Below, one piece after another: positions 23,181-61,788 of a DNA stretch of 64,000 bases. The DNA is from Chiloscyllium plagiosum (lineage: Eukaryota): contig NC_057751.1 in NCBI RefSeq assembly GCF_004010195.1, forward strand, positions 18,983,387 to 19,047,386. Direction: 5' to 3'. Under the pieces are notes generated by a model, which did no database searches, was not told the DNA's origin, and worked only from the letters and a program-made list of their open reading frames with translations. The stretch's first letter is position 1, and each line of letters begins with the position of its first letter. The translations under genes were made by a program, and so were the position numbers.

Positions 23181-24845
23181 TTAGTGGCTCAGTGGTTAGC
23201 ACTGCTGCATCTCAGTGGCAGGGACCCGGGTTCAATTCCTGCCTGGTGTTCGCGCATTCTCCCCGTGTCTGCGTGGGTTCCCTCCGGGTGCTCCGGTTTC
23301 CTCCCTCAGTGCAAAGATGTGCAGGTTCGGGTGGATTGGCCGTGCTAAATTACCCATAGTGCTCAGGGATGTGCAGGTTAGGGTGGATTGGCCATGCTAA
23401 ATTACCCATAGTGCTCAGGGATGTGCAGGTTAGGGTGGATTGGCCNNNNNNNNNNNNNNNNNNNNNNNNNNNNNNNNNNNNNNNNNNNNNNNNNNNNNNN
23501 NNNNNNNNNNNNNNNNNNNNNNNNNNNNNNNNNNNNNNNNNNNNNNNNNNNNNNNNNNNNNNNNNNNNNNNNNNNNNNNNNNNNNNNNNNNNNNNNNNNN
23601 NNNNNNNNNNNNNNNNNNNNNNNNNNNNNNNNNNNNNNNNNNNNNNNNNNNNNNNNNNNNNNNNNNNNNNNNNNNNNNNNNNNNNNNNNNNNNNNNNNNN
23701 NNNNNNNNNNNNNNNNNNNNNNNNNNNNNNNNNNNNNNNNNNNNNNNNNNNNNNNNNNNNNNNNNNNNNNNNNNNNNNNNNNNNNNNNNNNTGCTAAATT
23801 ACCCATAGTGCAGGGATGTGCAGGTTGGGGTGAATTGGCCATGCTAAATTACCCATAGTGCTCAGGGATGTGCAGGTTGGGGTGAATTGGCCGTGCTAAA
23901 TTACCCATAGTGCTCAGGGATGTGCAGGTTCGGGTGGATTGGTAATGCTAAATTACCCATAGTGCTCAGGGATGTGCAGGTTTGGGTGGATTGGCCGTGC
24001 TAAATTACCCATAGTGCCCAGGGATGTGCGTTCGGGTGGATTGGCCATGCTAAATTACCCATAGTGCCCAGGGATGTGCAGGTTAGTGTGGAATGGCCAT
24101 GCTAAATTACCCCTAGTGCACAGGGATGTGCAGGTTAGGGTGGATTGACCATGCTAAATTACCCCTAGTGCACAGGGATGTGCAGGTTATGGTGGATTGG
24201 CCATGGTAAATTACCCATAGTGCTCAAACATGTGCAGATTAGGGTGGATTGGCCATGCTAAATTACCCATAGTGCTCATGGATGTGCAGGTTTGGGTGGA
24301 TTGGCTTTGGGAAATTACCCATAGTGCTCAGACATGTGCAGGTTAGGGTGGATTGGCCATGCTAAATTACCCATAGTGCTCAGGGATTTGCAGGTTAGGG
24401 TGGATTTTGGCTGAAGCCGGGTGCAACTATTACAGCTTGTCTGTTGTTCTGCTAATCAGGGCTCCCACATTGTGGATCAAGATGTTTCGTGGAACTTCTC
24501 TCCCCTCTTTCATTTCGATAAATGTGAGATGTTGCATTTTGGTAAGGAAGGACTTATGCAGTTGATAGACAATAGACAGTCGGTGCAGGAGTAGGCCATT
24601 CGGCCCTTCGAGCCAGCACTACCATTCAATATGATCATGGCTAATCATCCTCAATCAGTATCCTGTTCCTGCCCATAGTGCTCAGGGATGTGCAGGTTAG
24701 GGTGGATTGGCCGTGCTAAAATGCCCGTAGTGTTAGGTGCATTAGTCAGGGGTAAATGTAGGGTCTTGGGTGGGTTGCTCTTCGGCAGGTTGGTGTGGAC
24801 TTGTTGGGTCGAAGGGCCTGTTTCCACACTGTAGGGAATCTAATC
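23181..24845 (+). mobile_element. HE1-type SINE with internal 52-bp tandem array (~15 visible units plus a gap) and a 271-bp captured insert
   Basis: SINE head ~23181-23316, array 23317-24405, insert 24403-24673, array and SINE tail resume. Confidence 0.9.
23446..23791. other. Assembly gap (346 N) inside the 52-bp array
   Basis: Run of N flanked by array units. Confidence 1.
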
Positions 24846-25272
24846 ACAAATTCTCTCGTGCTGAATTGATCCCACTAGCCACTCCAGAATATCTTTCCTC
24901 AATGAAGAATGTACAAATAGAAACTGCAGATGATGGATATTTGAAACACAAACAGAAAGACCTGGAGAAAGGGAAACAGATTGAATTGATTGCTCCTTCA
25001 CTGGACCAAAAGCGTTAACTCGGTTTCTATCAATTGTCCACAGTGTAAGTGCCAGCTTTGTACCTGTACTGAACACAGCATTAAAATTCACACAAAACCA
25101 TGTTATAGTCCAAAAGGTTAATTTAGCTGTATGAGCTTTCTGAGTTCTGCTCCTTCGTCAGGTAGCTTGGCAAAGCATTTGGCTAGTTTTGCAGGAAAAG
25201 ACTTCAGGCTCTTGCCATTGCCTTGCTGGCGTCCATATCCTTTGCAGAGTCCAATACCCTCAACTGTTTAAG

Positions 25273-25777
25273 AGTGGCATGGTGGCTTAGTGGTTAGCAC
25301 TGCAGCCTCACGGTCCTAGGTTCGATTCCAGCCTCGGGTGACTCTCTGTGTGGAGTTTGCACTTTCCCCCCGTCTCTGCAGGTTAGGGTGGATTGGCCAT
25401 ACTAAATTACCCATAGTGTTCAGGGATGTGCAGGTTAGGGTGAATTGGCCATGCTAAATTACCCATTGTGCTCAGGGATGTGCAGGTTAGGGTGAATTGG
25501 CCATGCTAAATTACCCATAGTGCTCAGGATGTGCAGGTTAGGGTGAGTTTGGCCATGCTAAATTACCCATAGTGTTCAGGGATGTGCAGGTTAGGGTGAA
25601 TTGGCCATGCTAAATTACCCATAGTGCTCAGGGATGTGCAGGCTAAGATGGATTGGCCATGCTAAATTACTCATAGTGTTAGATGCATTCGTCAGAGGGA
25701 AATGGGTCTGGGTGGATTATTCTTCGGAGGGTCGAAGGGCCTGTTTCCATGCTGTGGGGAATCTAATCTAGTCTAAT
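25273..25777 (+). mobile_element. HE1-type SINE with ~6 x 52-bp internal array
   Basis: Head with B-box GGTTCGATTCC, array 25378-25680, tail. Confidence 0.9.
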
Positions 25778-25939
25778 GGTATCACATGGAGTGAGGCTGG
25801 TGATCTCAAGATGAAGTCGGCATGGATTAGCGATTTTGGCTGAAGCCGGGTGCAACTATTACAGCTTGTCTGTTGTTCTGCTAATCAGGGCTCCCACATT
25901 GTGGATCAAGATGTTTCGTGGAACTTCTCTCCCCTCTTT

Positions 25940-27005
25940 CATTTCGATAAATGTGAGATGTTGCATTTTGGTAAGGCAGGACTTATGCAGTTGATAGACA
26001 ATAGACAGTCGGTGCAGGAGTAGGCCATTCGGCCCTTCGAGCCAGCACTACTATTCAATATGATCATGGCTAATCATCCTCAATCAGTATCCTGTTCCTG
26101 CCTTCTCTCCATAACCCTTGATTTCACTATCCTTAAGAGCTCTATCCAACTCTTTCTTGAAAGTATCCAGAGACTCAATGATGATTGGGCCCTGGTGAGT
26201 TTGCTGAATAAGGAGACTTAGGGGTGCAGGTGTTCCTTGGAAGTGGAGCTGCAGGTAGACAGGGTGGTGAAGAAGGCATTTGGCCTGCTTGCCATCATTG
26301 GTCAGAGTTAGGATGTCATTTTGTGGCTGTACAGGAAGTAAATGTTAGAACATTGCAAATAATTCTGGTCACCCTCCTATTGGAAAGATGCTGTTAAACT
26401 TGAGAGGGCGCAGCAAAGATGTATTAGGGTGTTGCATGGACTGGAGAGTTTGAATTTTAGGGAAAAGCTGCATAGGGTAGGACGTCTTTCCCTGGAGCGT
26501 TGGAGGCTGAGTAGTAACCTTATAGAAGTTTATAAAATCATGAGGGGCATAGTTTGGGTAAATAGCCAAGGTCTTTTCCTAAGGGTGGGGAGATCCAAAC
26601 CTAGATTAGGTTAGATTTCCTACAATGTGGAAACAGGCCCTTCGGCCCAACAGGTCCACACCGACCCTCCGAAGAGTAACCCACCCAGATCCATTTCCCT
26701 CTGACTAGTGAGATTAGATTAGAACTAGAAGGTTTAAGGTGAGAGGGGAAAGATTTTTTTAATAAAAACCCGAGAGGCAACCTTTTCACACAGAAGGTGG
26801 TGTGTATCTGGAATGAGCTGCCAGAGAAAGTGGAATAGGCTGGTACAATTACAATATTTAAAAAGGCATCTGGATGGGTACATGAATATGAAGGTGTAGA
26901 GGACCATGAGCCAAATGGTGGCAAATCAGACGAAGTCAGATTGGGATGTCAGGTCGGTCCAGACAGGTCGCATCAAAGGGTCTCTTCCCGTGCCATGTGA
27001 CTCTG
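25940..27005 (+). mobile_element. CR1 3' portion with nested CR1 tail (26004-26177, minus) and SINE tail fragment (26602-26720, minus)
   Basis: SLERWRLSSNLIEVYKIMRG and 3' UTR. Confidence 0.8.
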
Positions 27006-27123
27006 CTTAATTGTCCACCACCACTCAAACTAGATGTGACAGCAGTGCAGAGCTCTGATCCTGTGGCTTTAGGATCACGTAACCATCTAGCAAGTGGTGT
27101 TTGCTGTTTGGCACACAAGTAAA

Positions 27124-30718: not shown

Positions 30719-31652
30719 TTAGGTTAGACTAGATTACATACAGTGTGGAAACAGGCCCTTCGGCCCAACAAGTCCACACCGACCCTCCAAAGGGCAACCC
30801 ACCCAGACCCATTCCCCTACATTTACCCCTGACTAGTCATAGAGTCATAGAAATGTACAGCACGGAAACAGACCCTTCGGTCCAACCCGTTCATGCCGAC
30901 CAGATATCCCAACCCAATCTAGTCCCACCTGCCAGCATCTATCCTGTCTGTACCTAACATATGCTTCCTTCTTTTTCTTAACCAAACCCTCAATTTCTTT
31001 AGTCACCCAGCATTCCCTATACCTACCAGCCTTCACTATCACCCTGACAGGAATATACTTTCTCTGGATTCTTGTTATCTCATTTCTGAAGGCTTCCCAT
31101 TACATCTGCCTCCAATCAGCTTTCGAAAGTTCTTGCCTAATACCATCAAAATTGGCCTTTCTCCAATTTAGAACTTCAACTTTTAGATATGTTCTATCCT
31201 TTTACATCATTATTTTAAAATGAATAGAATTATGGTCCCTGGCCCCAAAGTGCTCCCCCCGACACCTCATTCACCTGCCCTGCCTTATTTCCCAAGAGGG
31301 ACTAGTGCACCTAATACTATGGACAATTCAGCATAGCCAATTCACCCTAACCTGCACATCCCTGAGCACTATGTGTAATTTAGCATGGCCAATTCACCCT
31401 AACCTGCACATCCCTGAGCACTATGGGTAATTTAGCACGGCCAATTCACCCGAACCTGCACATCCCTGAGCACTATGGGTAATTTAGCACGGCCAATTCA
31501 CCCGAACCTGCACATCTTTGTACTGTGGGAGGAAACCCACGCAGACACGGGGAGAATGTGTAAACTCCACACAGTCACCCGAGGCTGGAATTGAATCTGG
31601 GACCCTGGTGCTGTGAGGCAGCAGTGCTAACCACTGAGCCACCGTGCCGCCC
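30719..31652 (-). mobile_element. HE1-type SINE with ~4 x 52-bp array, interrupted by an internally deleted CR1 (30838-31299)
   Basis: TSD GACTAGT at 30831-30837 and 31300-31306 around the CR1 insert; array 31313-31516. Confidence 0.85.
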
Positions 31653-32579
31653 TAAAAGATAGAGCTTCAATTAAGCATAGTGCGCCTGATGTGCATCTAC
31701 TCTTTAAGTATTTTCCAAGTTTCAAAGAGATCATCATATTCTTCAAGCGTGTGGAGAATACAGGCCGGGTTTGCCCAATATCTCTTCCTAGGACAATCCC
31801 ACCATCCAAGAACATGTATGCATTGTGTTCCCTTTATATCCTTCCTCAGATAAGGAGACAAAACTGTATTTATTACTCCATGTGTGGTCAAGTCAAGCTT
31901 CATGTCAATTAAAGCACAACTTTGTTATTCCTATTCTTTTCATAAAAAATAGATCTCATTAGCCTTCCTAATAGCTTGTCCCTGCATGTTAGCCTTCAGT
32001 GACACATTGCAAGAGCACCCACCTCCCTTTGTATAAAATCACTTTTTCTCCATTTATGAAATAGCATGCACATCCGTTTTGCCTACCAAAGAGGATAACC
32101 TCACGTTTGATTTGACTCAGTTATTGTCACGTAGTTTGTTACAAAATACAGTGAAAAGTTTGTATCGTGTCACCCCTATCGATCCCATCTTAAAACACAG
32201 AAACAAATCAAAACATTGAGTATAAAGGCAGAAGAAATTTTTTAAAAATTTGCAACTTTACAGTCGTTGTTAAGTGCACCATCATGGGCCTAGTGCCCAA
32301 AACAAGTTACAGAATCACAGAGTCGTACTGCACAGAAAAAGGCCCTTTGACCCAAACTGGTCTATGTCAACCTAAATGTCCATCCAAACTTGCCACATTT
32401 TCCTGCACTTAGCCCAAATCCATCTAATCATTGTCCATCTGAGATATCCCCACTGTTCAGTGCCAACTCACCTCCATCGATGCCCTTGCCACTATTAAGT
32501 CCTTGCTGGACCTCGCCAATGTTGCCGGATACTGCACTGACCAACCATTCATCATGAGTCTGCTTCAGGCCTTCCTCAG

Positions 32580-35298
32580 TGTTAGAGAAATTAGCCCAAT
32601 AAAGCAGAGATCACAAAACACAGCTCGAAGCAAAATGAACAAATACAGCGATTTCGTGGAAGAGAAATCGACTAAGCTAAAAGTTTTTTTTTATTTCTAA
32701 AATATACTTTATTCATAAAATAATTTGATGGTCTGTACAGTTGGTCATGCCATACAAACATAAACATTTGCATACAGAGATCAGAATTTATCATTTGTAT
32801 ATACAGGTCTGTACGTTTATCAATCATATGTCCATATATTTAGCTGAGGCGTCAGCAGGTCCCAAATGACTGCGTGGGCCCACTGTTCTTCTTAGGCAGG
32901 CAGGTGTTACACGGTGGTCTTTCCCCACCGCGCCTTGGCTTCAGCTGCCCCAAGCTTCAGCGCGTACCTCAAAACGTAGTCCTGGACCTTGGAATGTGCC
33001 AGTCTGCAGCACTCAGTCGGGGTCAACTCCTTCAGCTGGAAGATCAACAGGTTTTGGACTGCCCAGAGAGCGTCCTTCACCGAGTTGATGATCCTCCAGG
33101 CACAGTTGATGTTCGTCTCGGTGTGCGCCCCGGGGAACAGACCATAGAGCACGGAGTCCCGCATCACGTGCTGCTCAGGACGAACCTCGACAAACACCAG
33201 TGCATTCCTCTCCAGACTTCTGCATAGGCACATTCCAGAAGGAGGTGTGTGACAGTCTCATCCCCCCCCCAGCTGCTTCAAGGCAGCGTGCGGTGCGGCT
33301 GAGAGTCCGGGCGTGCATAAAGGATCTCACAGGCAGAGCCCTTCTCACCACCAGCCAAGCCATGTCTTGGTGCTTGTTGGAAAGTTCTGGCAATGAGGCA
33401 TTCTGCCAAATGGCTTTGACAGTCTGCTCAAGGAACCTCTCGATAGGATCAGCCCTCTCCTTTTCCCGAAGGGTCTCAAGGACCCTACGTGCTGACCACT
33501 TCCTGATGGACTTGTGGTCAAAGGTGTTTTTCTTCATAAACTTCTCCACGGAGGACAGGTGATACGGAACGGTCCAACGACTCATAGCGTTCCGCAGCAG
33601 CGAGGCCAGGCCCATCCTTCGCAACACCGGGGACAGGTAGAACCTCAGTATGTAGTGACACTTGGTGTTTGCGTACCGGGGATCCACGCACAGCTTGATG
33701 CAGCCACACACAAAGGTGGCCATCAGGGTGAGGGTGGCATTGGGTGTATTTTTTCCCCGTTGCCCACATCGAGTCCCTTCAGACCCGGTCCATCTTTGAC
33801 CTCCATATAAACTGGAAAATGGCCCGGGTGACTGCAGCGGCACAGGGTCTGGGAATAGCCTAGACCTGTGCCATGCATAACAGTAATGACAGTGCCTCAC
33901 ACCTGATGACCAGGTTTTTCCCGTGATGGAGAGCGACCGTAGCTTCCATCTGCCCAGTTTCTGCCTCACTTTGCTGATACGCTCCTCCCAAGACTTGGCT
34001 CACGCCCCAGCTCCCCCGAACCAAATGCCCAGCACCTTCAGGTGGTCGGTCCTGACAGTGAAGGGGATCGAGAATTGGTCGGCCCAGTTCCCGAAGAGCA
34101 TGGCCTCGCTCTTGCCTCGGTTTACCTTGGCCCCCAAGGCCCGTTCGAACTGGTCACATATGCACATGAGTCTGCGCACGGACAGCGGATTCGAGCAGAA
34201 AATGGCGACGTCATCCATGTACAGGGAGGCCTTATCCTGCAGGCCCACACTGCCAGGAATAGTCACCTCTGTCAGGCTCGCATCCTTCCTGATGGGCTTG
34301 GCAAATGGCTCTATGCAGCACACAAGCAAGGCAGGAGAGAGAGAGAAGGCAGCCCTGCCTGACTCCAGATCTGACTGGGAAGCTATCTGATTCCCACCCA
34401 TTGACTGAGACTGCACTGACAATTTTGGTGTAGGGCAGTCTGATCCAATTGCAGATTCCCTCCCCAAAGCCCATTTTGGAGGGAACATCTCTCATATACG
34501 TGTGTGATATCCTGTCAAAGGCTTTCTCCTGGTCCAGGCTGATCAGGTAGGTGTCCAACCCTCTGTCCTGCACGTAGGCGATCGTATCCCTGAGGAGTGC
34601 GAGACTCTCAGTGATCTTCCTGCCCGGTACAGCATAGGTTCGACTGAGCTGAAACAGCACAGTTCAGGTAGCTGAAACTCTCTTCCCTGAGCAGAGAATC
34701 AAGCCAGGTTTTATATGGATATTGCGCAATGGTCTTAATCGAAAATCGGGAAAATACAATAATCAAGTAATCCAGTTACCATGGTGATAATCACAAAGTA
34801 GTTATCAGAAGAATGCCCTGAATGTGAACACAATGTAGCGCCTGGCAGCATCAGTCAGTCTTTAATGGGATCAGGAGATTCCAGCTCTCTTCCCCGGGTA
34901 GATGAGAATGTCCCTTTCCTTGGCAGTAAGATGTTTCTATTGTTTCTCTCCTGTGAGCGAGGTATTCTAGTGCCTCTCCGTCTGACCTCTGTCCTTTGTA
35001 AGGCGTTGGCATCACTGGGGTATGAGACTGCCCTTAGGGCTGTGCTTATCAGATACAGGAAGCTTATCGTTAGCTTGTCTTGGAAAGTGTATTCCCTGGT
35101 CTGCAAGTGCTATGGTCATGCCTGGGATCCCTTGTCAGCCTGTTTGGTCAATACTGAGGCATTCTGGGTGTTCTTGTATGGTTTGGACGGGTTTGATTTC
35201 CTGTGTTCTGTGTGGCCGTGTTAGGCATCGGACAGATAATCCTCCGTGTCTGAGTCAGACTGAGCAGAGGTTGTCTCAGGGGCAGAGCTGTTCCCCCA
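32580..35298 (-). repeat. ERV 3' LTR (~0.76 kb without the Tx1 insert; outer U3 boundary uncertain)
   Basis: Aligns with 40709-42300; TATAAAA on minus at 34709-34715. Confidence 0.8.
32684..34639 (-). mobile_element. L1/Tx1-clade LINE, 5'-truncated ORF2 with poly(A)
   Basis: SLDQEKAFDRISH, SGVRQGC, LYMDDV, LKVLGIWFG, C-terminal Cys/His region; poly-T at 32684; TSD TCGACTAAGCTAAAA (32668) / TCGACTGAGCTGAAA (34640). Confidence 0.92.
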
Positions 35299-35303
35299 GT
35301 GTT

Positions 35304-35694: not shown

Positions 35695-36950
35695 GCTGAA
35701 CGGTGAGGGGGGCAGAGGGCAGTAGTATTTCTCACAGGCGTGAACAGCACAGTCCGATGGCCGCGACCAGCACCACAATCCCGGCAATGATAGCAATGAA
35801 GGCTATCAGTCCCTGTAGCAGGGCCGTGCCCATGAGCCCAGCGGGGAGGCTGCCCAGTCCCATAGGTCCCAGTGGGAGTTCCCCTCATGCAGGACTGAAA
35901 TGAGGGCACATGTGCCATCAGGTAGAGAGCTACATCAATGGCTATGGGTCATGGGCTTTGGGGAGGGGGAAGACTGGGTGTGAGAGATGAATGGTACCAC
36001 CCAGGACAACAGCAGCCAGGGGTCAGCTTTGTGACCACAGATAAAATCGGTGCCATTGTAGGTCCGGAGTTGGTGGGTCTGGGTCCCAATCCAGACGGCG
36101 AGGGAAGTGATATTCTGGGGGGGTTGAGGACCTGTAGGTTTAATATACTGCATTCTCTAGCAGATCGCCGTGCTGTGGGAGTTAGGAGCAGGGAGTCAGT
36201 GCGCCGGCTCCAACCAGCTTCCCACCCAGATGGCTGTGTGCTTTTTAAACAGACAGATCCTGCAGGTGACCCGTGTGTGCTGGTGTCAGCAATGGTCAGG
36301 GCTGGAGGCTCATGGGAAAGGTTGTAGGCCGGGTAAAACCACCCTTTAAATTTGTCCAGGTGGTACCCTGCAGATCTCCAGTGGGCAGGGCTATTGTCCC
36401 CGTAGTTGCTCATAGCTGGTAGTATGTTGAGTGTGGGAACCTCAGGGGGACTGTTTGGTTACAGCCACCACTCTGTCACGTCAGAGATGGGTGGCACGGT
36501 GGCACAGTGGTTAGCACTGCTGCCCCACAGCACCAGGGACCCGGGTTCAATTCCTGCCACGGGTACCTGTCTGTGTGGAGTTTGCACATTCTCCCCGTGT
36601 CTGCGTGGGTTTCCTCCGGGTGCTCCAGTTTCCTCCCACAGTCCAAAAGATGCGCAGGTTAGGGGGAATTGGCCATACTAACTTGCCCGTAGTGTTAGGT
36701 GTAGGGAAATGGGTCTGGGTGGGTTGTTCTTCGGAGGGTCGGCGTGGGCTTGTTGGGCCGAAGGGTCTGTTCCCACACTGTGGGGAATCTAATCTTAAAG
36801 GGGATTGAAACTGAGGGAATGCCCCCGTGAGACTGGACGGGGACCTAGTGCAGACCCAGCAGCGGGTCTGATTAAATTGCTTGAGCATCCTCAGTAAAGT
36901 GTTGGCCTACAAGTCACGGCGGATTATTAAATGTCTCGCCCCTTATCCCT
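35695..36950 (-). pseudogene. env: Retroviral envelope remnant (gamma-type SU, membrane-proximal region and TM helix)
   Basis: NQTRCWVC (CxxC motif), NGTDFICGHKADPW, then WDLWDWAASPLGSWARPLLQGLIAFIAIIAGIVVLVAAIGLCC; frameshifts; SINE at 36489-36794. Confidence 0.8.
36489..36794 (+). mobile_element. HE1-type V-SINE inserted in env
   Basis: Head, V-domain and tail. Confidence 0.9.
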
Positions 36951-37639
36951 GTTTCCCGGCAAGTCACAGTGTGACGGTCAGACAGGTCAGACTGAGGGTG
37001 ATGATGGTGAAGGCTGCACTGGATCTGTCTCCGGTTTCCTGAGCGGTGCCTTCCCCTCTCTGGTCCCGGTCCACTGGAAGTGGAGCTCTGTTGCAGGAGG
37101 TGGCATGCATCCATTTGGGCCGTCCTTCCACTTTTACAGCTGTCCGGGTGGTCAGAAGGATCTCTCTGTCGGAGAGAGAGAGTCCTTTTCGAGTGATTTT
37201 AGCATGGCATAGACCCTGGGTTGGAACGGATGAATTGGCACTGGTTGGGGTTTGGGCAGCACAGCTCTGACCTGGTCGTGCTTGACATTAATGCTTCTGC
37301 GGAGGGCTTGTACACAGTTCAGCAGAGCCTCTTGCGTCAGGAGAAGGGCTGTGTCCATGGAGAGCTTTGGGGGTCTGGTGGCGGTGGGCATAGGTTCCCC
37401 CATGAGCAAATCAAAAGGGGTGAGTCCGGTCATGCCGTTTGCCTGACCACATATAGTGTAAGGAACTAGTGGCAAGGCATCTGGCCAGGTCAGTCCTGTG
37501 TCTTGGGTGATCTCGATCGATGTGGCTTTAAGGGGAATCGTTCATCCGTTTGACCATGCCTGATGACAGGGGTTGGTAGGGGATGTGGTGTTGTCATGGT
37601 ATGGTCTAGTGCCTTGCTAATACCAGTCGTGAGCCTAGC

Positions 37640-38567
37640 AGTGATGTGAGCACTGCTGCCTTACAGTGCCAGGGACTCGGGTTCGATCCCAGGCTCGGGC
37701 GACTGTCTGTGTGGAGTTTGCGCATTCTCCCCGTGTCTGTGTGGGTTTCCTCCAGGTGCTTCGGTTTCCTCCCACAGTCCAAAGATGTGCAGGTTAGGGT
37801 GGATTGGTCATGCTAAATTACCCATAGTGCTCAGGTATATGCAGGTTAGGGTGGATTGGTCATGCTAAATTACCCATAGTGCTCAGGGATGTGCAGGTTA
37901 AGGTGGATTGGCCATGCTAAATTACCCATAGTGCTCAGGAATATGCAGGTTAGGGTGAATTGGCTGTGCTAAATTACCCATAGTGCTCAAGGATTTGCAG
38001 GTTCGGGTGGATTGGCCATGGTAAATTACCCATAGTGCTCAGGGATGTGCAGGTTAGGGTGAATTGGCCGTGCTAAATTACCCATAGTGCTAGGGATGTG
38101 CAGGTTAGGGTGAATTGACCATGCTAAATTACCCCATAGTGCTCAGGGATGTGCAGGTTAGGGTGAATTGACCATGGTAAATTACCCATAGTGCTCAGGG
38201 ATGTGTAGGTTAGGGTGGATTGGCCATGGTAAATTACCCATAGTGCTCAGGGATGTGTAGGTTAGGGTGGATTGGCCATGCTAAATTACCCCATAGTGCT
38301 AGGGATGTGCAGGTTAGGTGAATTGACCGTGCTAAATTACCCCATAGTGCTCAGGGATGTGCAGGTTAGGGTGGATTGGCCGTGCTAAATTACCCATAGT
38401 GCTCAGGGATGTGCAGGTTAGGGTGAATTGGACATTCTAAATTGCCCATAGTGACAGGTGCATTAGTCAGAGACTAGTGGGTCTGGATGGGTTACTCTTC
38501 AGAAGGTCGGTGTGGATTGGTTGGGCTGAAGGGCCCATTTCCACACCGAGGGAATCTAATCTAATCT
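37640..38567 (+). mobile_element. HE1-type SINE with ~13 x 52-bp array, inside integrase
   Basis: Array 37784-38452 between SINE head and tail. Confidence 0.9.
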
Positions 38568-39460
38568 TATACCAGGATTGCGTGACAGTGTGTAACATGC
38601 CCCTCTTGCCTGTGTGGCCCACGCCATGGACTTCCAGAGCCAATGTGTGTAGGTGGGCTCTCAAGCAAATGATGTGGCCAACGGGGTGGACAACTGCGTG
38701 GCCCCAATGCGGGTCCAACTGTACTTTTGTTGCGGTGGAGCAACTCGCACCGCTTCCACAGGGTCAGTGACCTACTGCAGCCGTTGCTATTCTGGGGGCC
38801 TGCCTGCAGGATGTCGGTGATGGGATGCAGTGCGGCTACCCAGGCTGCTGCAACATTCCTGAGGGTGGCAGAGGTATGGGCAGCGCATTTTATAACCGCT
38901 AGGGCAGAGGGTAACAGGACTGCTTCCAGGAGGTTGGAGATTAGCGCAGCGTTATTGCAGTGGCCTTCCCTGCTGAAGTGATGAACCCTCTCTATTCCCA
39001 GAGTCCGAATGCCTGAAGGAGGACCCATCCGTAAAGAGTATGAGGTCAGTGTTGCCTAAAGGGGTTTCAGAGAGGTCAGGGGTGACCACCTGCTGAACAA
39101 GGTTGAAACAGTCATGGCTGTCCGCAATGGAGTTCTGAGGGAGTGTGAGCAGGGAGGCGGGGTTCAATGCAGGAGCACACTTTTAGGGACAGGTTAGCTT
39201 TGGACAGTAAAGCGACCTCATTGCCAGGTCTCCAGGTGACAGTGAAATGTTGGGTTGCTGCTGAAGTTAGCAGTAAGAAGACCGAATGGGGAATCAGTAC
39301 AGTGCATGGGTCATGCAGCACGATGGGGATGGCATTTTCTACTGTTACCCCAGCTGCTGCCTCAGCTCTCAAACATGCCAGCATTCCCCTTACATTGGCA
39401 GTACATGCACAGAGTAAAACAACAACAGGGCGCTGGAGATCCCCATGGAACTTTGTCAAG

Positions 39461-39779
39461 ATGATTAGATTCCCTACAGTATGGAAACAGGCCCTTTGGC
39501 CCAACAAGTCCACACTGACCCTCTGAAGAGTAACCCACCCAGACCTATTCCCCTACATTCACCCCTGACTAATGCACCTAACACTCTGGGCAATTTAGCA
39601 TGGCCAATTCTCCCTAACCTGCACATCTTTGGATCGTGGGAAGAAACTGGAGGAAACCCACGCAGACACGGGGAGAATGTGCAAACTCCACACGGACAGC
39701 TGCCCGAGGCGGGAACTGAACCCGGGTCCCTGGCGCTGTGAGGCAGCAGTGCTAACCACTGAGCCCACCGTGCCACCCC
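39461..39779 (-). mobile_element. HE1-type V-SINE inserted in pol
   Basis: Head, V-domain and tail; pol frame continues across it (GFVSG|ILTKFHG). Confidence 0.9.
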
Positions 39780-40732
39780 CTCCTGCCGGATACAAACCCC
39801 TTGGATTCATTGACATCGAGGTAGAAGGGCTGGGTGTCGTCTGGGACCCCCCGCCCCCCAGGGCAGGAGCAGAGACTAGTCGCTGTTTTCAATCGGTGAA
39901 TGCCTGTTCCAACTTTGGTGTCCTTAGCTGTCTGCTCAGGTGATGATGCCTCCCATAGGGGCTCACCAGTGGCACGGTGGTCTGAGATCCAATGCCTGCA
40001 ATGATTCACCATTCCCTGGAAAGCCTGCAGCTGAGTGGCTGGTGGGGGAAAGTGTGAGAATTCGTATCCCAAGCAGTTTACTTTGACTTGGCAGAGTTGC
40101 ATTTTCTCCGTTGAAACCCTGCCTTCAACGGAACAAATGAGACTTGTTCCGGGGTGGTCCTTCTCCCAAGGATTTGGGGTCCCGCAACCTCATGAACCTC
40201 TGGTTCGAGCTGGGAATACAGAACAGACTGCAGCACTGACAAACACAGGAACAGACAGGACGGACAGATGAGACAAATACAGGACAAACACAAGGCAGAC
40301 AAACAAAAGAACAGGGCCCCTGTCAATTCCCTTCAAGCTGAGGATCTCAGGATTAAAGCTTAATCTGCGGTCTTTCAGTCTATCATGCCAGGCTTCCACT
40401 GCCCATCCATCTTTCCCCTGGCTGGATCAGGTTCATTCCCCAATCCTGGTTCAAGTTGGATCACGCGTCTTCCAAATTAGTTAAAATTTAGGTGACCAAT
40501 TTAGGAGTTTACCTGACTAGCTCCTCACGCCAAGCCCGTGGTTGCTCAGTGCCGAATTGCCGCAGTAGTTGGATTAGAATTGTGCCTACCCTCCTCAATT
40601 GTCCAGCCATTCTCTAGGTCTGACTCGCCAGGTCCGAATTGGGCTAAATTTAAAATGGCAGGTTCGCTTACCCTGTTGAAAGAAAAGGGGCTGCTGACTA
40701 AATCCAAACTGTAGGAGAAATTAGTCCAATAA

Positions 40733-41798: not shown

Positions 41799-42734
41799 AT
41801 CAAGCCAGGTTTTATACGGATATTGTGCAATGGTGCTATTCGAAAAGCGGGAAAGTACAATGATCAAGTAATCCAGTTACCATGGTGATAATCACATAGC
41901 AATTATCAGAAGAATGTCCTGAATGTGGATACAATAAAGCATTCTGGCAGCATCAGTCAGTCTTTAATGGGACCAGGAGATTCCAGCTGTCTTCCCGGGT
42001 AGGTGAGAATGTCCCTTTCCTTGGCAGTAAGATGTTTCCATTGTTTCTCTTCTGTGAGCGAGGTATTCTAGTGCCTCTCCGTCTGACCTCTGTCCTTTCT
42101 TTGTTATCACTGGGGTATGAGACTGCCCTTAGGGCTTTGGGACAGCTGTGTTTATCGGATCCAGAAAGTGTACTCCCCGGTCTGCGAGTGCTACGGTCAT
42201 GCCGGGTAGCCCTTGTCAGCCTGTTTGGTCATTGCTGAGGCATTCTGGGTGTTTCTTGTACGGTTTGGACAGGCTTGATCTCCTGTGTTCTGTGTGGCCA
42301 TGCTGTGGGTAGGGGCAGGGCGGCAGATCTCTGCCCAAACTCACTTTCGCTTCTACGATTATACGCTGGATGCAGATGCCATCAGGAGCTGAAAGTCACT
42401 CCCACTGCGGCGGCCAAGAGTCGGTGTGAGGGCCGTCCCATCGATGCCTCACTGTCCCCCCAACCCCCTCAAATCCGCACTGGGCTCTGCCGCTACGACT
42501 GAGCTGTTCCCCAACAGGTAAGTAAAATCCAAGAGATCGATAAAACGCAAAGGAAGAAAAAGAAAAGAAAAGTGGACAGAGTAGACAAGCCCCGGGCTCA
42601 AAAAGCCCTACTCCACCACCATCTTGCTGAAAGAAGTTTTTTTTCTCTCCGTGATTTATGTTCAGGCACAATCACAATCATGCACTTGTTTACAGCCACT
42701 TCCTCACTATCTATTGGGTTGAAGTTGTGGAAAG

Positions 42735-43516: not shown

Positions 43517-43860
43517 TAGATTAGATTAGATTCCCTGCAGTGTGCGAACAGGCCCTTCAACTCAACCAGTCCACACCGACCCTGCAAAGAGTAACCCACC
43601 CAGACCCATTTCCTTCTGACTAATGCACCTATCCCTAGGCGTAATTTAGCATGGCCAATTCACCCTAACCTGCACATCCCTGAGTACTATGGGTAATTTA
43701 GCACGGCCAATTCACCCTAACCTGCACATCCCTGAGCACTATGGGTAATTTAGCATGGCCAATTCACCCTAATCTACACATCCCTGAGCACTATGGGATT
43801 GAACCTGGGACCCTGGTGCTGTGAGGCAGCAGTGCTAACTACTGAGCCACCGTGCCACCC
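43517..43860 (-). mobile_element. HE1-type SINE with ~3 x 52-bp array and deleted central part
   Basis: Array 43640-43796 joined directly to the B-box region. Confidence 0.85.
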
Positions 43861-44377
43861 CCATCTTGTACCTGTTTATAAAGATTGAGGAGTTTAGATC
43901 TCCTGTGCAATTACAACAGACCAGAATAAAACAATGCCTGGGAAGGTGTTCCCAAATTGTTGTTTGAAAGGGAATTCCAGGATTTGGTCAAACGACAAGA
44001 AGAAAAATTGACAAGGTAACTCCAAGTTGAAATGGTATGCACTTGCAGAGAAATTTGCAGATGGTATTTTCTCATGTATCAATTGCCTGTGTTCTCGCTG
44101 GTAGAGATCATGAGTTTTGAAATGTGCTGCCTAAGAAGTTGATGAGTTGCAACCCTCCATTGGAATTGGAGGCAGTGATTACTGAAGCTGAAGGATAGCG
44201 TGCTGAATAAGTGGGTTGCTGTCCCCTGAATGGGTGGCACAGTGGCTCAGTGGTTAGCACTGTTACCTCATAGCACCAGAGTCCCAGGTTCGATACTGAG
44301 CCACCTGCACAGTCTCCTCCTGAGCAGGAGAGTCAACGTTTTGGGTATAAGCCCTTCATTCCTGATTGGAAGATTTT

Positions 44378-45266
44378 GGGTGGCACGGTGGGCTCAATGA
44401 TTAGTACTGCTGCCTCATAGCACCAGGGTTCCAGGTTCGATTCCAGCCTCGGGCGATTGACTGTGTGGAGTATGCACATTCTCCCCGTGTCTGTGTGGGT
44501 TTCCTCCGGGTGCTCCAGTTTCCTCCCACAGTCCAAAGATGTGCAGGTTCGGGTGAATTGGCCATGCTAAATTACCCATAGTGCTCAGGGATGTGCAGGT
44601 TCGGGTGAATTAGCCATGCTAAATTACCCATAGTGTTCAGAGATGTGCAGGTTAGGGTGATTTGGCCATGCTAAATTACCCATAGTGTTCAGGGATGTGC
44701 AGGTTCAGGTGATTTGGCCGTGCTAAATTACCCATAGTGCTCAGGGATGTGCAGGTTAGGGTGGATTGGCCGTGCTAAATTACCCATAGTGCTCAGGGAT
44801 GTGCAGGTTCGGGTGAATTAGCCATGCTAAATTACCCATAGTGTTCAGAGATGTGCAGGTTAGGGTGGATTGGCCGTGCTAAATTACCCATAGTGCTCAG
44901 GGATGTGCAGGTTAGGGTGGATTGGCCGTGCTAAATTACCATAGTGCTCAGGGATGTGCAGGTTCGGGTGATTTGGCCGTGCTAAATTACCCATAGTGCT
45001 CAGGGATGTGCAGGTTCGGGTGATTTGGCCATGTTAAATTACCCATAGTGCTCAGGGATGTGCAGGTTCGGGTGATTTGGCCATGCTAAATTACCCATAG
45101 TGCTCAGGGAAATGCAGCTTAGGTTGATTTGGCCATGCTAATAGTGTTAGGTGCGTTAGTCAGAGGGAAATGGGACTGGGTGGGTTACTCTTCGGAGGGT
45201 CGGTGTGGACTGGTTGGGCCGAAGGGCCTGTTTCCATACTGTAGGGAATCTAATCCAATCTAATCT
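44378..45266 (+). mobile_element. HE1-type SINE with ~11-12 x 52-bp array
   Basis: Array 44538-45142 between intact head and tail. Confidence 0.92.
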
Positions 45267-46369: not shown

Positions 46370-47125
46370 TTCATAGAATTCCTACAGTATGGAAACAGGC
46401 CTTTCAGCCCAACAATTCTACACCAATCCTCCAAAGAGTAACCCACCGAGACCCATGCCCCTATTACTCGACATTTACCTCAGACTAATGCACTTAACCT
46501 CCACATCACTGAACGCTATGGGCAATTTCCCATGGCCAATTCATCTAAACTGCACATCCCTGAGCACTATGGGTAATTTAGCATGGCCAATTCACCTAAC
46601 CTGCACATCCCTGGGCACTATGGGTAATTTAGCATGGCCAATTCACCTAACCTGCACATCCCTGAGCACTATGGGTAATTTAGCATGGCCAATTCACTCT
46701 AACCTGCACATCTTTGGACTGTGGGAGGAATCCGGAGCACCCAGAGGAAACCCACGCAGACACGGGGAGAATGTGGAAACCCCACACAGACCCCAAGGCT
46801 GGAATTGAACCCGGGTCCCTGGCGTTGTGAGATTAGGTTATATTACTTACAGTGTGGAAACAGGCCCTTCGGCCCAACAAGCCCACACCGACCCTCCAAA
46901 GAGCAACCCACCCCTACACCTAACACTACGGCCAATTTAACATGGCCAACTCGCCTAACTTGCACATCTTTGTGACTGTGGGAGGAAGCCGGAGCACCCG
47001 GAGGAAACCCACGCAGACACGGGGAGAATATGCAAATTCCACACAGACAGTCACCCGAGGCTGGAATTGAACCTGGGTCCATGGTGCTGTAAGGCAGCAG
47101 TGCTAACCACTGAGCCACTGTGCCC
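46370..47125 (-). mobile_element. Two adjacent HE1-type SINEs, the first with ~4 x 51-52-bp array
   Basis: Copies 46370-46830 (array 46512-46712) and 46831-47125. Confidence 0.88.
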
Positions 47126-51749: not shown

Positions 51750-54620
51750 GAAATAAGTCAAACAGTCAGGAACAAAGCAGAGATCAAGGTAGAACTGCTA
51801 AATTAAACTGCATTTATTTCAATGCAAGAGGCCTAACAGGGAAGGCAGGTGAATTCAGGGCATGGTTAGGAACATAGGACTGGGATATCATTGTAATTAC
51901 AGAGGTGTGGCTCAGAGATGGACAGGACTGGCAGCTTAATGTTCCAGGATACAAATGCTATGGGTTGGATTGAAAGGGGGGCAAGAGAGGAGGGGGAGCA
52001 GTGTTTTTGATAAGCGCTGTACTTAGGGAGGATATTCCTGGGAATTCACCCAGGGAAGTTATTTGGGTGGAACTGAGAAATAAGAAAGGGATGATCACCT
52101 TATTAGGATTGTATTATAGCCTCCCCAGTGGGAAATTGAGAAACAGATTTGTAAGGAGATCTCAGCTATCTGTAAGAATAATTGGGTGGTTATGGTAGGT
52201 GATTTTAACTTTCCAAACATAGACTGGGACTGCCATAGTGTTAAGGGTTTTGATGGAGATGAATTTGTTAAGTATGTACAAGACAATTTTCTGATTCAGT
52301 CTGTAGATGTACCTCCTAGAGAAGGTGCAAAACTTGACCTACTCTTGGGAAATAAGGCAGGGCAGGTGACTGAGGTGTCAGTGGGAGAGGTCTTTTGGGC
52401 CAGTGACCATAATTCTATTAGTTTTAAAATAGTGATGGAAAAGGATAGGCCGGATTTAAAAGTTGAAGTCTTAAATTGTAGGAAGGCTAATTTTGATAGT
52501 ATTAGGCAAGAACATTCAAAACTTGATTAGGGGCAGATGTTCGCAGTTAAAGGGATGGCTGGAAAATAGGAAGCCTTCAGAAATGGGATAACGAGAGACT
52601 CAAGACAGTATATTCATGTTCGGGTGAAAGGTAAGGCTTGTATGTGTAGGGAACACTGGATGACAAGAGAAGTTGAAGTTTTGGTTAAGAAAATGAAGGA
52701 AGCATATGTCAGGTATAGACATCAGAGATTGAGTGAATCCTTCGAAGAGTGTAAATGCAGTAGGAGTATACTTAAGAGGGAAATCGGGTGGGCTAAAAGG
52801 GGACATGAGATAGGGTTAAGGAAAATCCAAAGAGATTTTATAAATATATTAAGGAGAAAAGGGGATAGAATAGGGCCCCTCAAAGATCAGACTAGGTGTG
52901 GAACCACAGGAGATGGGGGACATACTAAGCGAGTATTTTAGATCAATGTTTACTGTGGAGAATTACATGGAAGATATAGAACATGGAAAAATAAATGGTG
53001 ACATCTTGAAAAATGTCCATATTACAGAGGAGGAGGTATTGAATGTCTTAAAGTACATAAAACTGGATAAATCCCCAGGACCTGATTAGATGTACCCTCG
53101 ATCTCTGTGGGAAGCTGGGGAAAGTGATTGTTGGGCCCCTTGCTGAGACATTTGTATCATCGATAACCACAGATGAGGTGCCGGATTACTGGAAGTTGGC
53201 TAATGTTGTGCCACTATTTAAGAAAAATAGTAAGGAAAAGCCAGAGACCAGGGAACTATAGACCAGTGAGCCTGACATTTGTGATGGCCAAGTTGTTGGA
53301 GGGAATCCAGAGGGACAGGATTTACTTGCATTTGGAAAGGCAAGGACCAATTAGGGATAGTCAGCATGGCTTTGTGCGTGGGAAATCATGTCTCACGAAT
53401 TTAATTCAGTTTTTTGAAGAAGTAACAAAGAGGATTGATAAGGGCAGAGTGGTGGACGTGACCTATACAGATTTCAGTAAGGCATTCAGCAAGGTTCCTC
53501 ATGGTAGAATGGTTAGCAAAGTTATCTCATGGAATAAAGGGAGAACTAGCCATTTGGATACAGAACTGCTTGAAGGTAGAAGACAGAGGATGGTGGTGGA
53601 CGGTTGCTTTTCAGACTGGAGGCCTGTGACCAGTGGAGTGCCACAAGGATCGGTGCTGGGTCCACTACTTGTCCTCATTCATACCAATGATTTGGATGTG
53701 AACATAGGAGGTATAGTTAGTAAGATTGCAGATGACACCAAAATTGGAAGTACAGTGAACAGTGAAGAAGGTTACCTCAGAGTACAACGGGATCTTAATC
53801 AGATGGGCCAATGGGCTGAGGAGTGGCAGATGGAGTTTAATTTAGGTAAATGCGAGGTGCTGCATTTTGAAAAGGCAGATCAGAGCAGGACTTATACAAG
53901 TAATGGTCAGGTCCTGGGGAGTGTTGCTGAAGAAAGAGACCTTGGAGTGCAGGTTCATAGCTCCTTGAAAGCTGAGTCACAGGTAAATAGGATAATGAAG
54001 AAGACGTTTGGTATGCTTTCCTTTATTGGTCAGAGTATTGAGTCCAGGAGTTGGGAGGTCATGTTGCTGCTGTACAGGACATTGGTTAGGACACTTTTGG
54101 AATATTGTTTGCAACTCTGGTCTCCTTCGTATCGGAAATACGTTGTGTAACTTGAAAGGGGTTGGAAAGGATTTACAAGGATTTTGCAAGGTTTGGAGGA
54201 TTTAAGCTACAGGGAGAGGCTGAACAGGCTGGGTTCCTTTTCCTGGAATGTCGGAGATTGATTTATGAAATCATGAGGGGCGTGGATAGCGTCAATAGAC
54301 AAGGTCCTTTCCCTTGGGTTGGGGAGTTCAGAACGAGATGGCACAGGTATAGGCTGAGAGGGGAAAATTTTATAAGTGACCTAACATACAACATTTTCAC
54401 GCAGAGGATGTGTGTGTGGAATGAGCTGCTAGAGGAAGTGGTAGAGGCTGGTACAATTGCAACATTTAAAAGGCATCGAGATGGGTATATGAATAGGAAG
54501 GGTTTCGAGGGTATGGGCTACATGCTGGCAAATGGGACGAGATTGGGTTCGGATATCTGGTTGGTATGGACGGGTTGAATCGAAGAGTCTGTTTCTGTGC
54601 TCTATGAATCTATGACTCTG
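51750..54620 (+). mobile_element. CR1 (HER1-type) LINE, nearly full ORF2 (disrupted) + 3' UTR
   Basis: CIYFNARGL at ~51810, GDFNFPNIDW, 325-aa RT ORF 53173-54150 (QHGFVRGKSCLTNL, GVPQGSVLGP, IADDTK); CTATGACTCT tail. Confidence 0.93.
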
Positions 54621-57559: not shown

Positions 57560-58375
57560 ACTTCAGAAGTAGAGATGTCTTCCTGTAGTTGTACAGGGCC
57601 TTGGAGAGACCACACTTATGGAGTACTGCATAGAATTTTAGTCTCCTTACTGACAAAATGACATACTTGCCAAAAAGTGAGTGTAGCGAAGATTCCCTAG
57701 GCTGATACCAGGGATAGCAGGACTGTGCTGAAAATGTGTTGCTGGAAAAGCGCAGCAGGTCAGGCAGCATCCAGGGAACAGGAGAATCGACGTTTCTTCA
57801 GAAGGGCTTATGCCCGAAACGTCGATTCTCCTGTTTCCTGGATGCTGCCTGACCTGCTGCGCTTTTCCAGCAACACATTTTCAGCTCTGATCTCCAGCAT
57901 CTGCAGACCTCACTTTCTCCTCATAGCAGGATTGTCCCAGAAAAACAATTAGTGAATACAAGTCCATTGAACCAGAGTTTAGAAGGATGAGAGGGATCTG
58001 ATTTAAATGTATAAAATTCGAATGTGGCTGGATAGAGTGGATGCAGGGAGCATTCTTTACTGTGTATGTGGATTTCAAAACCGGGGCAGAGTCTCACGAT
58101 GCAGGGTTGACCACGTAGGATTGAGAGGAGGTTAAATTTCTTCACTCAAGAGATAGCAAACCTGTAGAATTCTCAACCACAGCAGACTGTGAAGGCCAAA
58201 TTACTGAACATATTCAAAAAGGAGATAGGTTGATTTTAAGTTTCAAAGGCATCAAAAGGGTATGGGAAGAAAGCAGGAATATGACATTCAAATGGAGGAT
58301 CAAATATGATCATACTGAATGGTGGGGCAGGCTCAAAGGCTGATTAGCATATTCTTACTTTCTATGTTTCTATCT
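57560..58375 (+). mobile_element. Old CR1 3' portion, preceded by an HE1 head fragment (57459-57559, minus)
   Basis: Degenerate LYRAL.RPHL.EYC region and 3' UTR with TTTCTATGTTTCTAT tail. Confidence 0.75.
57727..57922. mobile_element. Penelope-derived fold-back pLTR element
   Basis: ~70-bp near-perfect inverted arms 57727-57796 / 57816-57885; TSD ATAGCAGGACTGT / ATAGCAGGATTGT; partial hammerhead GAAGGGCTTATGCCCGAAACGTC in the loop. Confidence 0.85.
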
Positions 58376-58875: not shown

Positions 58876-58877
58876 CA

Positions 58878-59178: not shown

Positions 59179-59431
59179 AGTGAAAACAACAAATGTGAGG
59201 ATCTCAGCGGGTCAGAGAGCATCCATGGAGAGAGAGCAAGTTAACGGTTCAAGTCGAGACGACGCTTCATCAGAAGTGTTGAATAAGCGATCTATCACAG
59301 CCTCCTTCAGTGGTTCCCAGCATTACAGATGATAGTCTTCAGCCAAATGGCATTGAGGCTCTGCAAGTGGGCTATGGGCCCCTGACAATATCCTACAAGA
59401 CCACGCAAGATATGTGCTCCAGGACGTGGGT

Positions 59432-60130: not shown

Positions 60131-60468
60131 ATGAAAGGCTGAGAGCAGATCGGGGCAACACAATCCAATCCCTCTTGGAGGATGAGGGTTTGGCTGAGCT
60201 ACTGAATGAATTGGAAAAGTCATGGTGTCCAGAATCCAGTAACCTGCTCCCATCAAGACCTAAGCAGTGACTTAGTGGTTTAGTATCACTTCCTTGTTTT
60301 AAACTGCATTATTCTATTTATACATGAAAAAAAATTTGGTACATTATTTTTAGCAGCCTTCTCAGCAGCTCAAACGTTTCTTTTGAAATGTCGCTTTGAG
60401 ATTTTCTGTCCCTTTCGAGCGAAAATTGTTCTTCCAAACGAGAACCTCAAAAATTACAGCAGAAAGAC

Positions 60469-60765
60469 GAGCACTGCTGCCTTGCAGCACCAGGGTCCCA
60501 GGTTCGATTCCAGCCTTGGGCGACTGTCTGTGTGGAGTTTGCACATTCTTCCCGTGTTTGCGTGGGTTTCCTCCGGGTGCTCCGGTTTCCTCCCACAGTC
60601 TAAAGATGTGCAGGTCAGGTTGGATTGGTCATGCTAAATTACCTGTAGTGTTAGGTGCATTAGTCAGGGGTGAATGTGGGGAAATGGGTTACTCTTCGCA
60701 GGGTCAGTGTGGGATTGTTGGCCCGAAGGGCCTGTTTCCACACCGTAGGGAATCTAATCTAATCT
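60469..60765 (+). mobile_element. HE1-type V-SINE
   Basis: B-box, V-domain, tail. Confidence 0.9.
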
Positions 60766-60923
60766 GAAAAGATAAAACCAGGCCCATTCACTAGCATGGT
60801 AGGGCTGCCATAGTTGCTATTGGAGGAAGAAGGGAACAAGAGCTTGCTGTGTAGAAAATGAGTGTTCGCTCTCTTTACCTGACAATCTGTTCAAATTAAT
60901 TGCCAGCCTTACAAAAGGAACAG

Positions 60924-61045
60924 GTAAAAACAAGGACAGCAGATGCTGGAAACCAGAGTCTGGATCAGGGTGGTAGTCTGCAGGTCAGGCAGCATCCGAG
61001 GAGCAGGAAAAATCGACATTTTGGGCAAAAGCCCTTCATCAGGAA
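60924..61045 (-). mobile_element. Solo Penelope pLTR (~122 bp) with degenerate hammerhead
   Basis: Exact 16-bp TSD CTTACAAAAGGAACAG at 60908-60923 and 61050-61065 (20 bp with one mismatch). Confidence 0.85.
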
Positions 61046-61092
61046 CAGTCTTACAAAAGGAACAGCCATGCTTTGAGAAGGACCTGTAACTT

Positions 61093-61788
61093 TAGATTAG
61101 ATTAGATTACTTACAGTATGGAAACAGGCCCTTCGGCCCAACGAGTCCACTCCGACCGTCCGAAGGGCGACCTTTACATTTACCCTTTCACTTAACACTA
61201 TGGGACAACTTAGCGTGGCCAATTCACCCTAACCTGCATATCCCTGAGCACTATGGGTAATTTAGCACGGCCAATTCACCCTAACCTGCATATCCCTGAG
61301 CACTATGGGTAATTTAGCATGGCTAATCCACCCTAAGCTGCATATCCCTGAGCACTATGGGTAATTTAGCATGGCCAATCCACCCTAACCTGCACATCCC
61401 TGAGCACTATGGGTAATTTAGCATGGCCAATCCACCCGAACGTGCACATCCCTGAGCACTATGGGTAATTTAGCATGACCAATCCACCCTAACCTGCACA
61501 TCCCTGAGCACTATGGGTAATTTAGCATGGCCAATCCACCCTAACCTGCACATCCCTGAGCACTATGGGTAATTTAGCATGGCCAATCCACCCTAACCTG
61601 CACATCCCTGAGCACTATGGGTAATTTAGCATGGCCAATCCACCCTAACCTGCACATCCCTGAGCACTATGGGTAATTTAGCATGGCCAATCCACCCTAA
61701 CCTGCACATCCCTGAACACTATGGGTAATTTAGCATGGCCAATCCACCCTAACCTGCACATCTTTGGACTGTGGGAGGAAACCGGAGA
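61093..61788 (-). mobile_element. 5'-truncated HE1-type SINE with ~11 x 52-bp array
   Basis: Array 61194-61762, very homogeneous units. Confidence 0.92.

What the first reader, a model, noticed from the sequence alone, without database searches (positions are those of the whole stretch)
23181..61788. SINE-VNTR composite: eight HE1-type SINEs with an expandable 52-bp internal array
Arrays of GGGATGTGCAGGTTAGGGTGGATTGGCCATGCTAAATTACCCATAGTGCTCA occupy the same SINE position at 23317, 25378, 31313, 37784, 43640, 44538, 46512 and 61194, with about 3 to 15+ units, in both orientations, while other copies here have one unit. All share the junction CCCATAGTGCTCAGGGATGTG, absent from plain copies, which points to one origin, plausibly slippage between CCCACAGT and CCCATAGT flanking the unit. 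The layout is analogous to an SVA-type composite, a SINE that seeds minisatellites. One copy lies inside the ERV integrase, so it post-dates the provirus.
Basis: partly seen in the sequence, partly recalled or inferred. Interest (0 to 1): 0.7.

Follow-up and report, generated by a model that had tools for sequence, protein, structure and literature searches.

The report
Minisatellite spreading among shark SINE copies
Eight copies of a common shark jumping element each hold a chain of the same 52-letter repeat, which arose once from the element's own sequence and seems to have been passed sideways between different lineages of the element rather than only riding along with it.

Summary
Eight V-SINE (HE1-type) copies carry 52-bp arrays of about 3 to 15 or more units at one SINE position, on both strands; 13 plain copies have one unit. 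The interpretation needs changing.
(1) The unit is the SINE's own V-domain 3' end. Its junction comes from a partial internal repeat in an older, longer SINE form (12.9 kb copy, 46.5 kb terminus), not from CCCACAGT/CCCATAGT slippage.
(2) Array copies are not one clade: they have four tail types, three shared with plain copies (AU p=0.002; 0.04 without one copy).
(3) Non-terminal units are 2.3% diverged against 6.5% for their host heads and tails (8 of 8 loci), loci share one pool of variants, and only the 3'-terminal unit looks old.
Best reading (0.5): a single-origin SINE-derived minisatellite moved and refreshed between resident SINE copies by ectopic recombination. Main rival (0.33): several chimeric master copies plus biased local turnover. 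No read-level or genome-wide check was obtained. It is not an SVA; it is closest to squamate SINE-derived satellites. I found no shark case in nine literature searches, and could not check Dfam or Repbase.

The parts
23181..24848 (+). Array-bearing SINE A23.3: head 23181-23315, array 23316-24406 (346-N gap 23446-23791), insert, last units 24672-24727, medium tail
24407..24671 (+). 265-bp templated insert inside the A23.3 array, 99.2% identical to 25836-26100, with about 4-bp microhomology at each joint
25836..26100 (+). Donor of that insert, about 60 bp downstream of the A25.4 tail
25274..25775 (+). Array-bearing SINE A25.4: array 25377-25678 (5.8 units), part of head deleted at the 5' joint, short (X) tail
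30720..31654 (-). Array-bearing SINE A31.3: array 31316-31516 (3.9 units); medium tail split off (30720-30836) by a CR1-type fragment (about 30840-31298) flanked by a 7-bp duplication
37647..38567 (+). Array-bearing SINE A37.8: 5'-truncated head, array 37784-38453 (12.9 units), X tail; inside the pol of a decayed ERV on the - strand
43517..43860 (-). Array-bearing SINE A43.6: tRNA head joined directly to the array (most of the V domain deleted), array 43641-43797 (3 units), X tail
44378..45265 (+). Array-bearing SINE A44.5: full head, array 44538-45141 (11.6 units), X tail
46370..46830 (-). Array-bearing SINE A46.5: array 46487-46712 (mostly 51-bp units), long (L) tail that keeps the partial internal repeat which seeds the unit
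61090..61787 (-). Array-bearing SINE A61.2: 25 bp of head, array 61196-61762 (10.9 units), Y tail like most plain copies
12820..13040 (-). Older array-free SINE with about 1.3 units; junction-like sequence at 12857-12876; model of the seed
36830..40200 (-). Decayed gammaretrovirus-like ERV pol region (stops and frameshifts) hosting A37.8; plain copies at 39.6 kb and 36.6 kb sit in or next to it

Best explanation
A SINE-derived minisatellite with one origin that moves as a module between SINE copies. Step 1 (seed seen, event inferred): an older long SINE form had the start of the unit repeated 52 bp downstream; mispairing of this repeat duplicated the 3' end of the V domain once, and the array fixed A37 and mostly C47. 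Step 2 (shown as a pattern): the array came to sit in front of four different SINE tails, so it was exchanged between subfamilies. Step 3 (inferred): much of the exchange is DNA-level ectopic recombination (synthesis-dependent repair or gene conversion) between dispersed copies, anchored in the long conserved head on the 5' side and blocked by tail-specific indels on the 3' side. This brings in or refreshes units from a genome-wide pool and spares the 3'-terminal unit. Step 4 (shown): arrays also turn over locally. Ordinary retrotransposition of an array-bearing short-tail master probably added copies too. The array is a selfish passenger; no host function is claimed.
For: Four tail indel types among 8 array copies, three shared with plain copies. 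Monophyly rejected: AU p=0.0024 with 22 copies, p=0.042 without A61.2. Non-terminal units 64/2770 (2.3%) against host head+tail 87/1343 (6.5%), lower at 8 of 8 loci, Wilcoxon p=0.008; on homologous positions 1-36, plain single units 24/399 (6.0%) against 47/1875 (2.5%). Polarity: first units 7/247, last units 18/244, p=0.024; last units match plain units (p=0.51). Weak 5'-to-3' rise in divergence, rho 0.26, permutation p=0.03, 51 units. Little differentiation between loci (Fst-like 0.05, p=0.095, 59 units) with the same variants in up to 8 loci. None of 10 toy models of local turnover gave the first/last asymmetry. The 265-bp microhomology-flanked insert shows recent template switching inside one array. 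No T4 Pol III stop in heads or arrays (the only two hits lie in the A23.3 insert), so RNA-level spread is also possible.
Against: Terminal units are not random plain-host units: CA at unit positions 40-41 in 5 of 6 readable terminal units against 2 of 13 plain copies, p=0.01. This fits inheritance from array-bearing masters, or transfer of the donor's terminal unit too. Four of five full short-tail copies have arrays (clade bootstrap 90), as an array-bearing master predicts. Strongly biased local turnover lowered internal divergence to 1.6-5.0% in simulation, so the age gap is not decisive. The first unit was less diverged than the last at only 6 of 8 loci; the two exceptions have ragged 5' joints. 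Head and tail divergence includes some subfamily differences. Six of 52 unit columns (polymorphic or CpG) were excluded. n is 8 loci in one window, with no reads and no orthologues.
Confidence: 0.5

Rival explanations
1. SVA-like spread only: a few chimeric master SINEs (made by reverse-transcriptase template switching between subfamily RNAs) carried the array, and all copies inserted with it. The young look of internal units comes from biased local duplication and deletion.
For: CA state shared by terminal units (p=0.01); short-tail clade with 4 arrays in 5 copies (4/5 against 1/9 for Y-type tails, p=0.023, types assigned by eye); intact B boxes and no T4 terminator; locus-specific variants repeated within arrays; biased turnover can reach 2.3% internal divergence; V-type domains have been proposed to mediate module and tail exchange (PMC6887750, passage).
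Against: Needs at least four masters. Simulated local turnover treats both ends alike, whereas the first unit is young and the last old. Local turnover should differentiate loci, yet Fst-like is 0.05.
Confidence: 0.33
2. Assembly artefact: gap filling routed through an abundant 52-bp repeat, inflating or homogenising the arrays.
For: The window has three N gaps, one inside an array, so it is probably a short-read-based assembly. Consensus-like internal units and low between-locus differentiation are what pooled reads would give.
Against: A falsely expanded single unit would have matching first and last units; they differ at 2-10 of 36 positions at all 8 loci. Locus-specific variants recur in neighbouring units. 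Polarity follows SINE orientation on both strands. Joints with 4-bp overlaps are not what long-k assembly makes unaided (inference). Exact unit numbers remain unverified.
Confidence: 0.1
3. Independent slippage in each plain SINE copy after insertion, as for most Alu-derived minisatellites.
For: Local duplication is the usual route for TE-derived tandem repeats in human (PMC3389668, passages).
Against: Medium, X and Y tails lack the junction bases, so such hosts cannot template the unit. A37 is in 59 of 59 non-terminal units. Host-private changes in the last unit are mostly absent from other units.
Confidence: 0.04

Closest known systems
SINE-derived satellites (sSat1-3) of squamates, Vassetzky et al. 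2023, PMC10702118 (read parts 1-4 of 5 of the text; supplements not seen)
   Same: Tandem units shorter than, and derived from, a tRNA-SINE; many dispersed loci share one unit; units more alike than the SINEs (89% against 64% in cobra); a form with both SINE termini around the array exists.
   Different: Here a cartilaginous fish and a V-SINE; unit of 52 bp (about 67-290 there); all 8 loci keep a SINE tail and some head, a form the paper calls uncommon; spread across tail subfamilies and 5'/3' polarity are not described in the parts read. The paper leaves open whether sSats occur outside squamates.
HE1 V-SINE / HER1 CR1-like LINE pair of sharks and rays (table entry in PMC3747384 and passage in PMC4824008; original papers not held)
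   Same: tRNA head, V domain, tail shared with CR1-type LINE 3' ends in this window.
   Different: No internal array mentioned in the passages seen; HE1 consensus not available for direct comparison.
SVA (SINE-R/VNTR/Alu) of hominids (definition from a passage of PMC3389668; other details recalled)
   Same: Non-autonomous retroelement with a central variable-number tandem repeat between fixed ends.
   Different: No foreign modules; the repeat is the SINE's own body; tRNA-type head; CR1-type tail rather than poly(A); not monophyletic.
Alu- and LTR12-derived minisatellites (PMC3389668, passages)
   Same: Initiation at short direct repeats; LTR12 repeats proposed to be propagated by transposition.
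   Different: Alu cases vary in unit boundaries and units match best within their locus; here one unit and one variant pool are shared by all loci.

Membership tests
V-SINE (HE1-type) | tRNA-derived head with Pol III A and B boxes | tested here: met
   B-box-like motif in 7 of 8 array copies (one degenerate; A61.2 lacks that part of the head); A-box pattern matched in 4 of 8. Rfam found nothing at gathering thresholds.
V-SINE (HE1-type) | Conserved V domain | tested here: met
   By-eye comparison of window copies with fish Ac1-like V-SINE consensuses in the PMC6887750 supplement: colinear through head and V domain up to about unit position 46. Not scored by alignment.
V-SINE (HE1-type) | 3' tail shared with a CR1-like partner LINE | tested here: met
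   Tail aligns to 5 of 5 LINE 3' ends tested; 75-86% over 37-55 bp by BLAST; one of them follows an RVT_1 ORF (E 1.4e-22).
V-SINE (HE1-type) | Identity to the published HE1 consensus | not testable with these tools
   V-SINE paper PMC155270 not held; no HE1 sequence in the supplements searched (one file could not be searched). The name HE1 rests on anatomy and recall.
SVA-type composite | Modules from unrelated elements (Alu-like, SINE-R) around the VNTR | tested here: not met
   Head, unit and tail all align to the plain SINE profile.
SVA-type composite | VNTR-bearing copies form one retrotransposing lineage | tested here: not met
   Four tail types; AU p=0.0024, or 0.042 without A61.2.
SVA-type composite | Retrotransposes with its VNTR | tested here: inconclusive
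   The short-tail clade suggests it; no clear target-site duplications around the copies; no transcript evidence.
SINE-derived satellite (sSat) | Tandem unit is a sub-segment of a SINE | tested here: met
SINE-derived satellite (sSat) | At least four middle monomers, SINE sequence continuing at an end | tested here: met
   5 of 8 loci have about 6 or more units; all 8 continue into SINE sequence.
SINE-derived satellite (sSat) | Units more homogeneous than the parent SINEs, within and between loci | tested here: met
   2.3% against 6.5%; Fst-like 0.05.
SINE-derived satellite (sSat) | Subtelomeric enrichment | not testable with these tools
   No genome held for this window.

The most novel reading that the evidence does not exclude
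A parasite of a parasite: a 52-bp minisatellite that homes into resident SINE copies by ectopic, head-anchored recombination, adds young units on the 5' side of the old unit, and so colonises a large share of a SINE family whatever the subfamily (8 of 23 bodied copies here, 5.6% of the window's called bases), with dispersed loci evolving in concert.
Probability: 0.33. Interest if true: 0.75.

Novelty: new variant of a known kind. Interest (0 to 1): 0.5.

Why it matters
How tandem repeats start and spread to dispersed sites is an open question. Here seed form, plain hosts and arrays coexist, and SINE subfamily markers give each locus a built-in record of host lineage and age. This makes transposition versus ectopic conversion directly testable with existing shark assemblies. 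It would extend SINE-derived satellites beyond squamates and may account for part of the tandem-repeat excess reported for short shark chromosomes and chromosome ends (bioRxiv 10.1101/2022.10.17.512540, passages). In practice it is also a source of VNTR markers and of assembly gaps.

Tried and rejected
No genome is held for the window, so no census. Exact-pattern scans of viral, metagenome and prokaryote genome contigs found nothing. No read-level lay was obtained, so array length, polymorphism, orthologous state and expression stay open. Three units fold no better than shuffles (DNA z +1.03, RNA z -0.83), so a hairpin-driven mechanism is rejected. Rfam: 0 hits. The first tree (AU p=0.0016) was flawed by a misaligned recurrent deletion in three rows; it was redone. 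A PDB search of the integrase-side frame found nothing; the RT-side frame gave only weak hits (E 0.038). Heads next to arrays are not younger than in plain copies (5/167 against 13/372), so there is no sign of conversion tracts entering the head (low power). The six-locus polarity figure (2/186 against 16/182, p=0.0005) is a post hoc subset and is not relied on. Earlier scan findings: nothing. Nine literature searches showed no description of this array; Dfam, Repbase and subscription papers could not be checked.
Full report
Context. The window is vertebrate repeat-rich DNA with CR1-type and other LINE remnants, a decayed ERV and 27 loci of one tRNA-SINE. A cartilaginous fish is inferred from the SINE type; the species was not determined. 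There are three N gaps. No genome is held, so all statistics come from this window.

Observation. TRF and a motif search confirm eight arrays at the reported places, with about 3 to 15 or more units on both strands. The junction matches 57 times, all in arrays, and never in 100 shuffles. Arrays cover 3472 bases, 5.6% of the called sequence. Thirteen plain copies have one unit.

Host. Each array copy has head remnants, a V domain and a tail. By eye the head and V domain are colinear with fish V-SINE consensuses in the supplement of PMC6887750, and unit positions 1-46 are the 3' end of that domain. The tail aligns to five LINE 3' ends in the window, as expected for the HE1/HER1 pair listed in PMC3747384. 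I could not compare with HE1 itself.

Origin of the unit. Two copies show a longer SINE form in which the start of the unit recurs downstream: the end of A46.5 (52 bp after the last unit's start) and the old array-free copy at 12.9 kb (about 46 bp, with a small deletion), the only junction-like sequence outside arrays. The other tails have lost these bases and cannot template the junction. All 59 non-terminal units have A at position 37, whereas the 8 terminal units have G 4, A 2, T 1, gap 1. One origin is well supported.

Lateral spread. The eight array copies have four tail indel types: long (A46.5), medium (A23.3, A31.3), short X (A25.4, A37.8, A43.6, A44.5) and Y (A61.2). The last three also occur in plain copies. 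On head+tail (22 copies, 293 columns; the 12.9 kb copy and fragments left out; a misaligned deletion masked in three rows), monophyly is rejected at AU p=0.0024, or 0.042 without A61.2. Most deep branches have low support; the X clade has 90. Repeated collapse of an ancestral array is a poor alternative, because plain copies have CG or TG at unit positions 40-41 (11 of 13) while arrays have CA.

Relative age and polarity. At non-CpG columns with at least 80% conservation, non-terminal units differ from their consensus by 2.3% (64/2770) and host heads and tails by 6.5% (87/1343), lower at 8 of 8 loci (six unit columns, terminal units and fragments excluded). On the same positions 1-36, plain single units differ by 6.0% and array units by 2.5%. 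First units (7/247) are like internal units (41/1610); last units (18/244) are like plain ones (first against last p=0.024; lower at 6 of 8 loci). Loci are barely differentiated (Fst-like 0.05, p=0.095) and share variants, yet some variants repeat within one array, showing local duplication. In toy simulations of local turnover, five settings left all positions at 5.6-7.3%. Five settings biased towards pure units lowered internal divergence to 1.6-5.0% but treated both ends alike.

Against this reading. Terminal units share the array-type CA state (5 of 6 readable against 2 of 13 plain, p=0.01), so they are not simply random plain hosts. The X clade looks like the offspring of an array-bearing master. 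Heads beside arrays are not visibly younger. The sample is eight loci.

Other anatomy. A23.3 holds a 265-bp insert 99.2% identical to sequence 1.4 kb downstream, with about 4-bp microhomologies: a recent template switch if real. A25.4 and A43.6 have head deletions at the 5' joint, while no 3' joint loses the tail. A31.3 is split by a later CR1-type fragment. A37.8 lies antisense between an MLV/XMRV-like RNase H (E 6.6e-6) and a weak integrase C-terminal hit; a plain copy lies in the same pol, so this does not date the array. The unit has no unusual structure.

Mechanism. Shown: seed, single origin, presence in several subfamilies, young and shared internal units, an old terminal unit, local turnover. 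Inferred: exchange by ectopic DNA repair anchored in the conserved head (0.5), versus chimeric masters with biased local turnover (0.33), artefact (0.1) or independent slippage (0.04). The first two may both have acted. An RNA-templated version of the exchange cannot be told apart here.

Comparison. It works like the squamate sSats (PMC10702118, text parts 1-4 of 5 read; supplements not seen) and meets the features testable here. It fails two defining SVA features. TE-derived minisatellites are common in human (PMC3389668, passages). Nine searches showed no report of this shark array; Dfam, Repbase, the original HE1 papers and one supplement file could not be seen and might describe it. Outside collections gave no copies, and no read-level check was obtained.

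Verdict. Real; a new variant of a known kind; interest 0.5. It would deserve 0.75 if homing into resident SINEs is confirmed.

Noticed in passing
window 62708-63578: 33-bp GC-rich minisatellite, 26.6 copies, open in several frames (stop-to-stop ORFs of 274-399 aa); could be an 11-residue repeat exon or a non-coding VNTR.
   Followed up: no
window 22225-22565: GC-rich 9/18/45-bp minisatellite about 600 bp upstream of A23.3.
   Followed up: no
window about 35700-40400, - strand: Decayed gammaretrovirus-like ERV (pol; an env-like stretch seen by eye only) with stops and frameshifts and three SINE insertions; no LTR pair showed in the self-comparison.
   Followed up: partly
window 44232-44310: Lone SINE head followed by a short inverted copy of its own start; it ends at the same B-box position as the A43.6 head on the other strand.
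   Followed up: no
window 257-2832 and 52016-54619: Two long CR1-type LINE copies, 78% identical; RVT_1 and endonuclease hits in the second.
   Followed up: partly
window about 33000-35220, - strand: Non-LTR element with RVT_1 hits, Tx1-like by recall; 34698-35220 is 86% identical to 41799-42302.
   Followed up: no
window 18383-18553 and 57727-57885: Self-inverted 160-170 bp elements, MITE-like; the second has several relatives in the window.
   Followed up: no
heads of the copies at 15.3, 28.7 and 31.3 kb: The same deletion of about 18 bp between two short direct repeats in the V domain, in copies of different tail types: a recurrent deletion site.
   Followed up: partly
52-bp unit: Each unit holds one TTAGGG hexamer within a run of GG pairs; no role tested.
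   Followed up: no
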